Assembly: GCA_019636215.1 (NCBI GenBank)
Contig: JAHBXZ010000001.1
Span: 69,694-133,693, forward strand
Length of the DNA: 64,000 bases
Direction: 5' to 3'
DNA from: Planctomycetota bacterium
Lineage (GTDB): Bacteria > Planctomycetota > UBA8742 > UBA2392
Shown: positions 21,164 to 22,705 of the stretch, one piece after another
Layout: every line of letters begins with the position of its first letter
Position numbering within the stretch: position 1 is the stretch's first letter
Program-made: the position numbers and the translations under genes
The notes under the pieces: model-generated
The model's database searches: none
The model's input: only the letters and a program-made list of their open reading frames with translations
What the model was told of the DNA's origin: nothing

Positions 21164-21667
21164 ATGATGAAACTGAGCATGTTTGCGCCAGCCCTGCTGA
21201 TGATCGGCTGTGTTGCCTGCACCGGCACCAACCCTGGGCCGATAATCGAACTGCCGGCACCCGGCGGCGCGGTTGTAGCTGTCACCGAGGTCGCCCCGGC
21301 GTCGCGGCACTTTGCCGATGCCACGACCGCGGCAGTCGCCGCTGCGTCGCCCGACAAAGCCGTGGCCGATGCCGCGATAGCGTACCTGCGCGACCGGGGC
21401 CCGGCTGGCCTGGCGGCCATGCAGCAGGTTCATGGCGCGGAAGTTGCTTTCCGGCTTGGCGAGGCCGAGGCCGGCAGCGCGCCGGACACCGAGACAAGCG
21501 ACCGCGTGCTGCGCGCGTTTGACAGGATCAGCGGCCAGCACGACGGCTGGGCCAGCGGCCTGTTCTGGCACAGGGATGCCGAATCCGCCCGGGCCGAAGC
21601 CCGCGCCCGGGGGCTGCCGATTCTCAACCTGTGGCTGCTGGGCACGCTGGACGACGAGTTCTGTTGA
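21164..21667 (+). CDS. lipoprotein N-terminal part of a thioredoxin-like protein, ending at an in-frame TGA (21665-21667)
   Basis: MMKLSMFAPALLMIGCVACTG is a lipoprotein signal. The ORF ends ...GLPILNLWLLGTLDDEFC-TGA inside a thioredoxin-fold active-site region. Either a pseudogene or the upstream part of a selenoprotein. Confidence 0.45.
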   Translation: MMKLSMFAPALLMIGCVACTGTNPGPIIELPAPGGAVVAVTEVAPASRHFADATTAAVAAASPDKAVADAAIAYLRDRGPAGLAAMQQVHGAEVAFRLGEAEAGSAPDTETSDRVLRAFDRISGQHDGWASGLFWHRDAESARAEARARGLPILNLWLLGTLDDEFC

Positions 21668-21682
21668 GCCAACGGGCGCTAC

Positions 21683-22705
21683 ATGCGTACCGTGCTGTAC
21701 GCAAACAAAGAAGTGTCGGCCTGGCTGGGCGCAAACTTTGTGATGCAGTGGACCAGCGAACGCCCGGTCCCGAAGATCACCATCGACTTCGGCGACGGCC
21801 GCAAGCTTGAACGAACCCTTACCGGCAACTCGGTGCACTACGTGCTGGATGCCGACGGCAACCCGCTGGACGCCCTGCCCGGCCTGTACGCGCCAGGCCC
21901 CTTCAAGGCGGCACTGGAACGTGCCCGGTTGCTGCACGCTGAGGTGCAGGACAAGCCCGGGCACGAACGCGACAGGCTGGTGGCACTGTTTCACTATGCC
22001 CGGGCAGCTGCGCTGCAGGGGCGTTTTGCGGACGCTGTTGCGCGGGCCGGCGGTGAAGCGAAATCGCCTGAGCCCGACACCGAGAAAGTGACGCGCTTGA
22101 ATGCCGGTGACCCCGACTTCCTGGGCAGGGTGGATCACGAGTTCGCGTCGAGAGCCATTCATCGGTCGCTATCCAAGGCAGGAGTCGAGTTGCCGATCCT
22201 GCTCGCGGCGACGGGCTATGACAGCGCCGCACTGGAAGCCATCAGCACCGAAATGTGGCGGACGATTGCCGCGACCGAGCTGCCCGACCCGGGCCTGGAT
22301 TCACGCAGCCTGGCGTTGATGGCCCGCGAGGCCGGGGCCACCGGCCTGCGCGCCGATGCCTTGGCAAGGGTCCGCCGGGCGACTAACCCCTTTGCCGCCG
22401 AGAAGGCCGTAAGGGTGGCGGTGGGCAAGATGATGATGGGCGAAGGCCGCATGCTGAACCTGCTGAATGAAAGTGAGAACGCGCTTGCCCGAATGGCCCA
22501 GAAGTTTGAAGAGACGCTGGCGATCGACTCACTGCGCAACGACTACCAGTTCCACAGCCGGATCCACCAGTGGTTCGCCATGGGTGAGGTAAAGGACTTG
22601 GAGGAACTGAATGAGCGCGTGTATCGCGAAGTGTTCCTGACCCCGCGCAGCGACAAGTGGCTGGGTCTTGCCGACCCGGAGTCGTTTGTCGGCATCGGCG
22701 GCTGA
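21683..22705 (+). CDS. thioredoxin-like domain protein, in frame with the preceding ORF across the single TGA
   Basis: Same reading frame as 21164-21667. ...RTVLYANKEVSAWLGANFVMQW continues the thioredoxin-fold alignment (compare the VFxDPxVxxxLNxxFVxVKVD pattern). Confidence 0.5.
   Translation: MRTVLYANKEVSAWLGANFVMQWTSERPVPKITIDFGDGRKLERTLTGNSVHYVLDADGNPLDALPGLYAPGPFKAALERARLLHAEVQDKPGHERDRLVALFHYARAAALQGRFADAVARAGGEAKSPEPDTEKVTRLNAGDPDFLGRVDHEFASRAIHRSLSKAGVELPILLAATGYDSAALEAISTEMWRTIAATELPDPGLDSRSLALMAREAGATGLRADALARVRRATNPFAAEKAVRVAVGKMMMGEGRMLNLLNESENALARMAQKFEETLAIDSLRNDYQFHSRIHQWFAMGEVKDLEELNERVYREVFLTPRSDKWLGLADPESFVGIGG
21684..21703 (+). other. hairpin 17 nt downstream of the in-frame TGA (SECIS-like candidate)
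   Basis: tgcgtac-cgtgct-gtacgca is a perfect 7-bp stem with a 6-nt loop containing GU. Confidence 0.25.

What the first reader, a model, noticed from the sequence alone, without database searches (positions are those of the whole stretch)
21164..22705. Thioredoxin-like lipoprotein split by one in-frame TGA that aligns with the active-site Cys of a paralogous domain, plus a hairpin downstream: selenoprotein candidate or nonsense pseudogene
ORFs 21164-21667 and 21683-22705 share a reading frame and are separated only by TGA at 21665-21667. The thioredoxin-fold alignment runs straight across the stop (…LWLLGTLDDEFC[TGA]ANGRYMRTVLYANKEVSAWLGANFVMQW). The C-terminal thioredoxin-like domain of the FGE protein in this same window (…FLSFDTCGQSDRTRAQVFTDQRFVTWMNENAVVL) aligns residue for residue, and its CxxS cysteine sits exactly at the TGA position. 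That Cys/UGA correspondence is the classic selenoprotein signature. A perfect 7-bp hairpin with a GU-containing loop starts 17 nt after the TGA, in the SECIS position. The alternative is a single TGC/TGT to TGA nonsense mutation or a sequencing error. A second in-frame TGA, in the SRAP gene at 35850, argues for caution.
Basis: partly seen in the sequence, partly recalled or inferred. Interest (0 to 1): 0.6.

Follow-up and report, generated by a model that had tools for sequence, protein, structure and literature searches.

The report
Unannotated selenocysteine thioredoxin-fold lipoprotein gene
The TGA that seems to split this gene is almost certainly read as selenocysteine, which gives one 513-residue exported redox protein from a selenoprotein family that current catalogues and annotation models do not contain.

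Summary
TGA 21665-21667 lies in frame between ORFs 21164-21667 and 21683-22705, and a 7-bp hairpin (21684-21703, loop CGUGCU) starts 17 nt after it.

Comparative data settle the interpretation. Twelve distinct orthologous loci (46-68% protein identity) all carry TGA at this codon, in the motif LD(D/E)EFC-TGA-AN(G/A)R(Y/F)MRTVLYA. Both halves are under similar purifying selection (dN/dS about 0.3-0.6). In 138 unique more distant homologues from Acidobacteriota, Planctomycetota, Verrucomicrobiota and Cyanobacteria, the aligned residue is an invariant Cys (S-C-ANSRFFR) and is the only conserved Cys.

The hairpin core GCGUAC-CGUG(C/U)U-GUACGC is nucleotide-identical in all 12 loci, although synonymous sites elsewhere are near saturation. 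It meets the published bacterial SECIS criteria; 1 of 133 Cys-type sequences does.

Not shown: selA, selB, selC and selD in this genome, which these tools cannot reach, and selenium incorporation.

No Pfam or NCBIfam model hits the protein, and no family in a 2026 list of 119 prokaryotic selenoprotein families corresponds. It is a new family of a well-known kind.

The parts
21164..22705 (+). Complete recoded coding sequence: 513 codons plus terminal TGA. GenBank annotates it as two hypothetical proteins (KF754_00420, 167 aa; KF754_00425, 340 aa).
   Evidence: full-length Cys-type homologues of about 440 aa span the junction
21164..21211 (+). Signal peptide ending in a lipobox-like M-I-G-C; Cys16 codon at 21209-21211.
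   Evidence: Read from the sequence. A Cys at this position is present in 6 of 7 Sec-type proteins and about 1% of Cys-type proteins. Lipoprotein status is inferred from the motif; no signal-peptide predictor was available.
21566..21892 (+). Thioredoxin_7-like fold domain (about residues 135-243). Strand 153-158 comes first, then Cys167-Sec168, then helix 170-180.
21662..21664 (+). Cys167 codon (TGT), directly before Sec. It is Cys in all Sec-type orthologues (TGT or TGC) and Ser in 133 of 138 Cys-type homologues.
21665..21667 (+). In-frame UGA, read as selenocysteine 168. It aligns with the single invariant Cys of the family.
21684..21703 (+). SECIS-like hairpin. The core GCGUAC/GUACGC is 6 bp, with a 7th U-A pair in this window. 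The loop is CGUGCU, with G-U at loop positions 2-3, and starts 23 nt after UGA.
   Evidence: nucleotide-invariant in 12 loci; criteria taken from PMC13188914
21667..21696 (+). Alternative, mutually exclusive hairpin (loop UACAU). It is the thermodynamically preferred fold in isolation, is weakened by GG->CC in 2 of 12 orthologues, and has no G in its loop.
21893..22663 (+). Conserved, mostly helical C-terminal domain with invariant motifs (RNEY, LNERVY..FLTP.SD.WLGL). No structural match was found. Sec-type proteins carry an insertion of about 35 residues here.
22703..22705 (+). Terminal stop of the same gene, also TGA. UGA therefore still means stop in this organism, and recoding at 21665 is site-specific.
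22724..22749 (.). G+C-rich 10-bp inverted repeat (GGGCCACGGG-cgcgaa-CCCGTGGCCC) between this gene and the convergent gene 22758-24290. It is a possible terminator.
   Evidence: Read from the sequence. The terminator scan did not flag it because the T-run is short. Inference only.

Best explanation
Positions 21164-22705 form one gene for a 513-residue exported, probably lipid-anchored, thioredoxin-fold selenoprotein.

Proposed mechanism of recoding (inferred from the established bacterial Sec-insertion mechanism; not shown here):
- When the ribosome reaches UGA 21665-21667, the lower hairpin that can form directly after the UGA lies in the mRNA channel and is melted.
- The conserved hairpin 21684-21703 is then free to bind SelB-GTP-Sec-tRNA(Sec).
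- Selenocysteine is inserted as residue 168.

Proposed chemistry (inferred):
- Sec168 sits at the N-terminus of helix 1 of a Thioredoxin_7-like domain, exactly where homologues have their only conserved Cys, in a monothiol C-A-N-S motif.
- Sec168 is therefore the redox nucleophile.
- The Sec-type clade has also changed the preceding Ser to Cys, giving a Cys167-Sec168 dyad. This dyad most likely cycles through a vicinal selenenylsulfide, as the GCUG end of mammalian thioredoxin reductase does.
- The substrate is unknown. The large conserved C-terminal helical domain is the likely substrate-binding part.

Shown: the conserved UGA/Cys correspondence, purifying selection on both halves, the nucleotide-level constraint on the hairpin, and the fold.
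Inferred: SelB dependence, export and lipidation, and the selenenylsulfide chemistry.
For: 1. TGA is conserved. It is at the same codon in 12 distinct loci with 46-68% protein identity. All 14 database clusters of the N-terminal half end in ...LD(D/E)EFC followed by a stop. One orthologue sequence recurs with the TGA in four independent assemblies, so a sequencing error is excluded.
2. Cys correspondence. In 138 unique Cys-type homologues the aligned residue is Cys in 100%, and it is the only Cys conserved above 30%.
3. Both halves are maintained. Identity to the window is 47-66% for the N-terminal half and 49-68% for the C-terminal half. dN/dS is 0.28-0.60 and 0.27-0.51 respectively.
4. Stop-codon choice. 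The internal stop is always TGA, while the terminal stops recorded for eight of the loci are TGA 2, TAA 3 and TAG 3.
5. RNA constraint. Codons +2 to +9 after the TGA are the only run of 3 or more invariant codons in the gene. Codons are invariant at 7 of 10 sites in +1..+12 against 21 of 129 elsewhere (Fisher p = 5e-4), although dS is about 0.7-1.7. Arg at +7 is CGT in all eight sequences of the codon alignment, and its U forms a stem pair in the hairpin.
6. SECIS criteria. The hairpin meets all four criteria given in PMC13188914: a 6-nt loop, a 6-7 bp stem, G at loop position 2 followed by U, a 23-nt spacing, and -7.7 to -9.3 kcal/mol. One of 133 Cys-type sequences passes. In an unbiased scan of the window and the Sec-type loci, 9 of 9 family sites and 1 of 14 other coding-flanked TGAs pass.
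8. Single origin. The Sec-type sequences are monophyletic in a neighbour-joining tree, which fits one Cys-to-Sec conversion.
9. Site-specific recoding. The gene's own terminal stop is TGA.
10. Precedent. Sec machinery is documented in some Planctomycetes (PMC4807772).
Against: - No selA, selB, selD or tRNA-Sec was found in the window or in any held locus from a Sec-type genome. This covers only about 0.2 Mb of those genomes, so the test is uninformative rather than negative.
- The hairpin stem is invariant, so there is no covariation; the evidence is conservation only.
- The 60 nt after the UGA do not fold better than shuffles (z = -0.53).
- The minimum-free-energy fold is the alternative hairpin, at -13.2 against -9.3 kcal/mol.
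- No Rfam family matches the region.
- There is no experimental evidence for selenium incorporation.
Confidence: 0.87

Rival explanations
1. Conserved split gene. Translation really ends at UGA, giving a 167-residue lipoprotein fragment, and re-initiates at AUG 21683 to give a separate 340-residue protein. On this reading the conserved nucleotides serve termination-reinitiation coupling.
For: An AUG lies 15 nt after the TGA in all 12 orthologues, where Cys-type homologues have Phe. Annotation pipelines call two genes.
Against: - The break would cut a thioredoxin fold between strand 1 and helix 1, exactly at its active-site residue.
- The downstream product would lack a signal peptide while its partner is exported.
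- The AUG also supplies the U and G of the hairpin stem, which could account for its conservation.
- Nucleotide invariance continues 20 nt past the AUG.
- The stop is always TGA, never TAA or TAG, and aligns with an invariant Cys.
- No clear Shine-Dalgarno motif precedes the AUG.
Confidence: 0.06
2. SECIS-independent read-through or local reassignment. The UGA is decoded by a near-cognate or suppressor tRNA (Cys, Trp or Gly), not by Sec-tRNA.
For: The Sec machinery was not observed. There is no covariation in the hairpin.
Against: - UGA is used as the ordinary stop of this same gene and of many neighbouring genes.
- The conserved hairpin has SECIS geometry and is absent from Cys-type homologues.
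- The UGA/Cys correspondence is the established selenoprotein signature (PMC13188914).
Confidence: 0.04
3. Nonsense pseudogene, or a sequencing or assembly error at a TGC/TGT codon.
For: A single base change from TGT or TGC gives TGA. Another gene in the window, the SRAP gene, has an apparently ordinary in-frame TGA.
Against: - The same TGA is present in 12 divergent orthologues and in several independent assemblies of the same sequence.
- Both halves show dN/dS well below 1 and equal divergence.
Confidence: 0.02

Closest known systems
Thioredoxin_7 / DsbH-type thioredoxin-fold domains (PF13899, PF03190; structures 3f9u, 7tkv, 2ju5, ERp18 1sen, AGR2/AGR3)
   Same: - The active-site residue sits at the start of helix 1.
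- The proteins are exported.
- AGR2/AGR3 share the monothiol CxxS arrangement seen in the Cys-type homologues.
   Different: - The Pfam model does not reach its threshold: no hit for the window protein, and 18 bits against a cut-off of 27 for homologue P0011.
- The motif is C-U-A-N-G or S-C-A-N-S, not CxxC.
- A very strongly conserved TIDFGDGRKLERTxTGNxxHYVLD segment and a helical C-terminal domain of about 260 residues have no structural match.
Trx7/PDZ domain-containing selenoprotein (NF041199), listed in PMC13188914 Table 1
   Same: A bacterial selenoprotein built on a Thioredoxin_7-type domain.
   Different: - Its motif is CxxU and it has a PDZ domain.
- NCBIfam release 20 gives no hit to the window protein at E <= 1.
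- Here Sec is the first position of the CxxS-equivalent motif, preceded by Cys (CU), and there is no PDZ domain.
CU-dyad selenoproteins: mammalian thioredoxin reductase GCUG (own knowledge); bacterial SaoL, SaoC, HgcA, MbdU and KCU-star families
   Same: Adjacent Cys-Sec residues, which in thioredoxin reductase form a vicinal selenenylsulfide.
   Different: - The folds and contexts are unrelated.
- Here the dyad sits at the classical thioredoxin-fold active site, not at a flexible C-terminus or a metal site.
- The chemistry proposed here is an inference.
Bacterial SECIS elements (E. coli fdhF type; consensus model in PMC13188914)
   Same: A stem-loop inside the coding sequence just downstream of UGA. 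It has a small apical loop with G then U near its 5' side, 23 nt from the UGA, which is within the 16-37 nt range.
   Different: - It has no sequence similarity to E. coli elements and no Rfam match.
- The loop CGUGCU does not fit the common sub-pattern in which the first and fifth loop bases pair.
- A competing, more stable 5' hairpin exists.

Membership tests
Bacterial selenoprotein gene | In-frame UGA aligned with Cys in non-selenoprotein homologues | tested here: met
   TGA in 12 of 12 Sec-type loci; Cys in 138 of 138 unique Cys-type homologues at the same column
Bacterial selenoprotein gene | Protein-level conservation and purifying selection on both sides of the UGA | tested here: met
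   N-terminal half 47-66% and C-terminal half 49-68% identity to the window; dN/dS 0.27-0.60 on both sides
Bacterial selenoprotein gene | SECIS stem-loop downstream of UGA that meets the consensus model: loop 3-9 nt, stem 4-16 bp, G in the first two loop positions, 16-37 nt spacing, <= -7.5 kcal/mol | tested here: met
   Loop 6 nt, stem 6-7 bp, loop CGUGCU, spacing 23 nt, -7.7 to -9.3 kcal/mol. Nucleotide-invariant in 12 loci. 1 of 133 Cys-type sequences passes
Bacterial selenoprotein gene | Compensatory base changes that support the SECIS stem | tested here: inconclusive
   The stem is invariant in all 12 loci, so no covariation is possible
Bacterial selenoprotein gene | Genome encodes selA, selB, selD and tRNA-Sec | not testable with these tools
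   Only the 64-kb window and flanks of up to 21 kb from related genomes are held, and none of these genes is in them. The rest of the MAG cannot be reached.
Bacterial selenoprotein gene | Selenium actually incorporated at the UGA | not testable with these tools
   Needs 75Se labelling or mass spectrometry
Thioredoxin_7 (PF13899) | Pfam HMM match at or above the gathering score | tested here: not met
   No Pfam hit at E <= 1 for the read-through protein. Homologue P0011 scores 18.1 bits against a cut-off of 27.
Thioredoxin_7 (PF13899) | Thioredoxin fold with the active-site residue at the N-terminus of helix 1 | tested here: met
   [not shown]
Trx7/PDZ selenoprotein (NF041199) | NCBIfam model match, CxxU motif and a PDZ domain | tested here: not met
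   No NCBIfam hit. The motif is C-U-x-x-G. No PDZ domain in Pfam.
Nonsense pseudogene | Stop not shared by orthologues, with relaxed constraint around or downstream of it | tested here: not met
   The stop is shared by all orthologues, and both halves are equally constrained
Bacterial lipoprotein | Signal peptide ending in a lipobox with an invariant Cys | tested here: inconclusive
   ...LLMIGC in the window, LLAGC, LLGC or LAC in most orthologues. Two clusters lack the Cys. No predictor was available.

The most novel reading that the evidence does not exclude
This is a previously uncatalogued bacterial selenoprotein family, an exported thioredoxin-fold protein with a Cys-Sec dyad. It arose once in a Planctomycetota clade from a widespread monothiol (CxxS) family.

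Four changes accompany the Cys-to-Sec switch in the clade:
- a vicinal Cys appeared directly before the Sec;
- most members gained a lipobox Cys (6 of the 7 aligned Sec-type proteins);
- an insertion of about 35 residues appeared in the C-terminal domain;
- an in-frame SECIS was built out of the codons for M-R-T-V-L-Y-A.

The clade and its Cys-type relatives would then be a natural paired system for asking what selenium adds to a single-thiol thioredoxin-fold active site.
Probability: 0.6. Interest if true: 0.5.

Novelty: new member of a known kind. Interest (0 to 1): 0.45.

Why it matters
- Annotation. The gene is filed in GenBank as two hypothetical proteins, and the same error recurs in every orthologue found. 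Correcting it adds a selenoprotein family that homology-based resources would miss, because neither Pfam nor NCBIfam has a model for it.
- Sec use in the clade. The gene marks this Planctomycetota clade as Sec-decoding.
- A defined contrast. It gives a clean Sec/Cys comparison, C-U-A-N-G against S-C-A-N-S, in a family present in more than 500 GTDB species representatives whose function is unknown.
- SECIS evolution. It shows how a SECIS hairpin can be written into conserved codons, with Phe changed to Met and a fixed CGT Arg codon.
- Limits. The mechanism is standard and new selenoprotein families are found regularly, so this is a solid addition to the list and does not change how recoding is understood.

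Tried and rejected
- Pfam and NCBIfam scans of the read-through protein gave no usable hit.
- Rfam, at gathering thresholds on the whole window and at E <= 10 on 21600-21800, gave no SECIS or other relevant family.
- ARAGORN on the window and all loci found no tRNA-Sec.
- tblastn with E. coli SelA, SelB and SelD against the window and about 2 Mb of held loci found only a selB homologue in an unrelated Cys-type locus, L105.
- The metagenome-contig scan returned only Cys-type loci.
- Gene-neighbourhood clustering over 163 loci showed only clade-specific synteny and no universal partner, so it gave no functional clue.
- The afdb50 fold library was unavailable.
- A look-up of the window's own N-terminal ORF found no record.
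- A scan for further selenoprotein genes in the window and the Sec-type loci found none; TGA 27804 and the SRAP TGA 35850 have no SECIS-like hairpin.
- The alifold/MFE hairpin directly after the UGA was considered as the SECIS. I ranked it second for three reasons: it has no G in its loop, it would lie inside the ribosome when the UGA is in the A site, and GG->CC breaks it in two lineages.
- I ran no further search on a speculative SelB query, because the hits cannot be restricted to this genome.
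Full report
**1. Observation**

The window reads ...GAC GAC GAG TTC TGT TGA GCC AAC GGG CGC TAC ATG CGT ACC GTG CTG TAC GCA..., with TGA at 21665-21667. 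ORF 21164-21667 and ORF 21683-22705 are in the same frame and are separated only by this codon. It starts 17 nt after the TGA. The window contains one tRNA gene, Gly(ccc), and no Rfam family other than that tRNA.

**2. Homologues**

A search with the read-through protein gave 976 hits.

- The closest hits (46-100% identity) are all about 340 aa and begin at MRTVLYAN, five codons after the TGA.
- More distant hits (about 36-45% identity, about 440 aa) cover the whole query.
- In the alignment, the full-length proteins read ...LLGxLxxE(F/Y)-S-C-A-N-S-R-F-F-R-T..., with Cys in the TGA column.
- A search with the N-terminal half alone found 14 clusters of 120-172 aa. Every one ends in ...LD(D/E)EFC.
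- GenBank annotates the window's two halves as hypothetical proteins KF754_00420 and KF754_00425 of a Planctomycetes MAG.

**3. DNA of the orthologues**

I fetched 12 distinct Sec-type loci: the window, L005, L006, L009, L165-L168 and L171-L174.

- All have TGA at the homologous codon. Where the sequence upstream of the TGA is held (11 of the 12; L167 begins at the TGA), the preceding codon is Cys, either TGT or TGC.
- All are followed by GC(A/C/G) AAC G(GG/CC) CGC T(A/T)C ATG CGT ACC GTG (C/T)TG TAC GCN.
- One orthologue sequence occurs with the TGA in four independent assemblies, and another is recorded on 19 contigs. A sequencing error is therefore excluded.
- The scans of GTDB species representatives and of JGI metagenomes returned 160 loci. 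Three of them (L005, L006, L009) are Sec-type. The remaining loci in which the motif could be located have S-C-ANSRFFR with TGC or TGT.
- The Cys-type loci come from Acidobacteriota (Pyrinomonadaceae, Blastocatellia), Planctomycetota, Verrucomicrobiota and Cyanobacteria (Nostoc, Anabaena, Microcoleus).
- Across 138 unique Cys-type proteins, the Cys aligned with the TGA is present in 100%, and no other Cys exceeds 30%.
- In Sec-type proteins the residue before Sec is always Cys, and it is never Cys in Cys-type proteins.
- In a neighbour-joining tree the Sec-type sequences form one exclusive clade.

**4. Selection**

- Identity to the window is 47-66% for the part before the TGA and 49-68% for the part after it.
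- Nei-Gojobori dN/dS is 0.28-0.60 before the TGA and 0.27-0.51 after it, with dS about 0.7-1.7.
- The upstream half is therefore as constrained as the downstream half. This is incompatible with a pseudogene.
- The terminal stop codons, recorded for eight of the loci, are TGA 2, TAA 3 and TAG 3, while the internal stop is always TGA.
- The window gene itself ends in TGA, so UGA is an ordinary stop in this organism and recoding is local.

**5. RNA element**

I looked at codon columns in which the amino acid is conserved and the codon is degenerate.

- Codons +2 to +9 after the TGA form the only run of 3 or more invariant codons in the gene.
- Codons are invariant at 7 of 10 such sites in +1..+12 against 21 of 129 elsewhere (Fisher p = 5e-4).
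- Arg at +7 is CGT in all eight sequences of the codon alignment. Its U pairs with the A of the downstream UAC codon in the stem.
- In Cys-type genes the same codons vary freely.

Two mutually exclusive hairpins are possible.

| | Hairpin A | Hairpin B |
|---|---|---|
| Position | starts within the UGA, 21667-21696 | 21684-21703 |
| Loop | UACAU | CGUG(C/U)U |
| Energy in the window | -13.2 kcal/mol | -9.3 kcal/mol |
| Conservation | weakened by GG->CC in 2 of 12 lineages | identical in 12 of 12 |

B meets every criterion of the consensus bacterial SECIS model quoted in PMC13188914: loop 3-9 nt, stem 4-16 bp, G in the first two loop positions followed by G or U, 16-37 nt between the UGA and the loop, and <= -7.5 kcal/mol. 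The values for B are a 6-nt loop, a 6-7 bp stem, C-G-U at the start of the loop, a 23-nt spacing, and -7.7 to -9.3 kcal/mol.

Only 1 of 133 unique Cys-type sequences has any hairpin that passes these criteria. In an unbiased scan of the window and the Sec-type loci for TGAs with coding-like flanks, 9 of 9 family sites and 1 of 14 other sites pass.

With the UGA in the A site, hairpin A would lie in the mRNA channel. This follows from established knowledge of the E. coli fdhF element, where only the upper stem-loop, 11 nt from the UGA, is needed. I therefore take B as the SelB-binding element. There is no covariation, because the stem never varies. There is no Rfam match, and the 60-nt region does not fold better than shuffles.

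**6. Protein**

- The AlphaFold2 model has mean pLDDT 75 and pTM 0.77. It shows a helical N-terminal region, then strand 153-158, Cys167-Sec168, helix 170-180, further strands, and a long helical C-terminal domain.
- Foldseek against the PDB returns Thioredoxin_7/DsbH-type domains first: 3f9u, 7tkv, 3ira, ERp18 and AGR2.
- Pfam does not reach its threshold. There is no hit for the window protein, and Thioredoxin_7 scores E 0.003 for homologue P0011.
- The C-terminal domain of the window's FGE protein is a true Thioredoxin_7 domain with CGQS. hhalign aligns its Cys with the Sec column, but at E 0.26.
- The N-terminus (MMKLSMFAPALLMIGC...) and those of most orthologues look like lipoprotein signal peptides. 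This is an inference from the motif.

**7. Mechanism proposed**

SelB-GTP-Sec-tRNA(Sec) bound to hairpin B inserts Sec at residue 168, which gives one prolipoprotein that is then exported. Sec168 takes the place of the single nucleophilic Cys of a monothiol CxxS thioredoxin-fold protein. The newly acquired Cys167 probably acts as the resolving residue through a vicinal selenenylsulfide, by analogy with thioredoxin reductase (own knowledge). The substrate is unknown, and gene neighbourhoods gave no clue to it.

**8. What is missing**

No selA, selB, selD or tRNA-Sec lies in the window or in the roughly 0.2 Mb held from Sec-type genomes. The rest of the genome cannot be reached with these tools. 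Some Planctomycetes are known to carry complete Sec machinery (PMC4807772).

**9. Comparison with what is known**

A May 2026 review lists 119 prokaryotic selenoprotein families with their Pfam or NCBIfam identifiers (PMC13188914). None corresponds to this protein.

- The nearest entry, Trx7/PDZ (NF041199), has a CxxU motif and a PDZ domain.
- NCBIfam release 20 gives no hit to the window protein.
- BSepDB is built by homology to known families (PMC13326102) and would therefore miss it.
- A groundwater-MAG survey cited in the review reports further unvalidated candidates that I could not inspect, so prior listing cannot be fully excluded.

**10. The SRAP TGA**

The SRAP domain spans the TGA at 35850-35852. 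That codon aligns with a variable loop residue, His in 2f20 and Ala in YedK, and has no SECIS-like hairpin. The N-terminus reads MTCR in place of the catalytic MCGR (the MCGR motif is from my own knowledge). It is most likely a decayed gene next to tRNA-Gly, and it says nothing about the main finding.

**11. Verdict**

This is a real, conserved, site-specific UGA recoding signal in a thioredoxin-fold gene. It is a selenoprotein with confidence of about 0.87. It is a new member of a known kind, and of moderate interest.

Noticed in passing
window 17583-20986 (+): A 712-aa ORF (17583-19721) ends in an HExxH-like module (FHELSH). A small lipoprotein-like ORF (19708-20154) follows it, and then a truncated second copy of the same core region (20186-20986). 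The DNA direct repeat 18012-18311 / 20243-20542 is 98% identical. The arrangement resembles a polymorphic-toxin locus with a duplicated or orphan core.
   Followed up: partly
window about 35480-36107 (+), TGA at 35850-35852: The SRAP (YedK/HMCES-like) gene has an in-frame TGA at a variable, non-Cys loop position and an N-terminus MTCR in place of the catalytic MCGR. It lies directly upstream of tRNA-Gly(ccc) at 36174-36248. It is probably a decayed gene at a tRNA or island junction, not a selenoprotein.
   Followed up: yes
window about 3216-4700 (-): A secreted fusion protein with an FGE-sulfatase domain (Pfam E 1.7e-25) and a C-terminal Thioredoxin_7 domain carrying a CGQS monothiol motif. 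This is the same kind of CxxS thioredoxin-like module as in the Cys-type relatives of the selenoprotein.
   Followed up: partly
window 27804-27806 (+): A TGA separates two long ORFs in the same frame (24354-27806, 1150 aa, with a C-terminal anchor-like tail; and 27807-29384). No SECIS-like hairpin follows it, so these are most likely just adjacent genes that share a frame.
   Followed up: partly
L105 11271 to the locus end (12891) (+): A selB homologue (36% identity to E. coli SelB over 478 residues) lies about 4.4 kb downstream of a Cys-type family member on a metagenomic contig. This is probably coincidental.
   Followed up: no
L001 11355-12551 (-), L003 2418-3614 (-): In the H3_PLA7-like orthologous loci the convergent neighbour is a ThiF + rhodanese (MoeB/MoeZ-like) gene. 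MoeB and rhodanese families have known Sec-containing forms, but no TGA was seen here, and this neighbour is not conserved in the window.
   Followed up: no
Sec-type against Cys-type proteins (alignment): Sec-type proteins differ from Cys-type proteins in a coordinated way beyond the Sec itself: Ser to Cys at -1, Ser to Gly/Ala at +3, FF to (Y/F)M at +5/+6, a lipobox Cys in 6 of the 7 aligned Sec-type proteins against about 1% of Cys-type proteins, and an insertion of about 35 residues in the C-terminal domain.
   Followed up: partly
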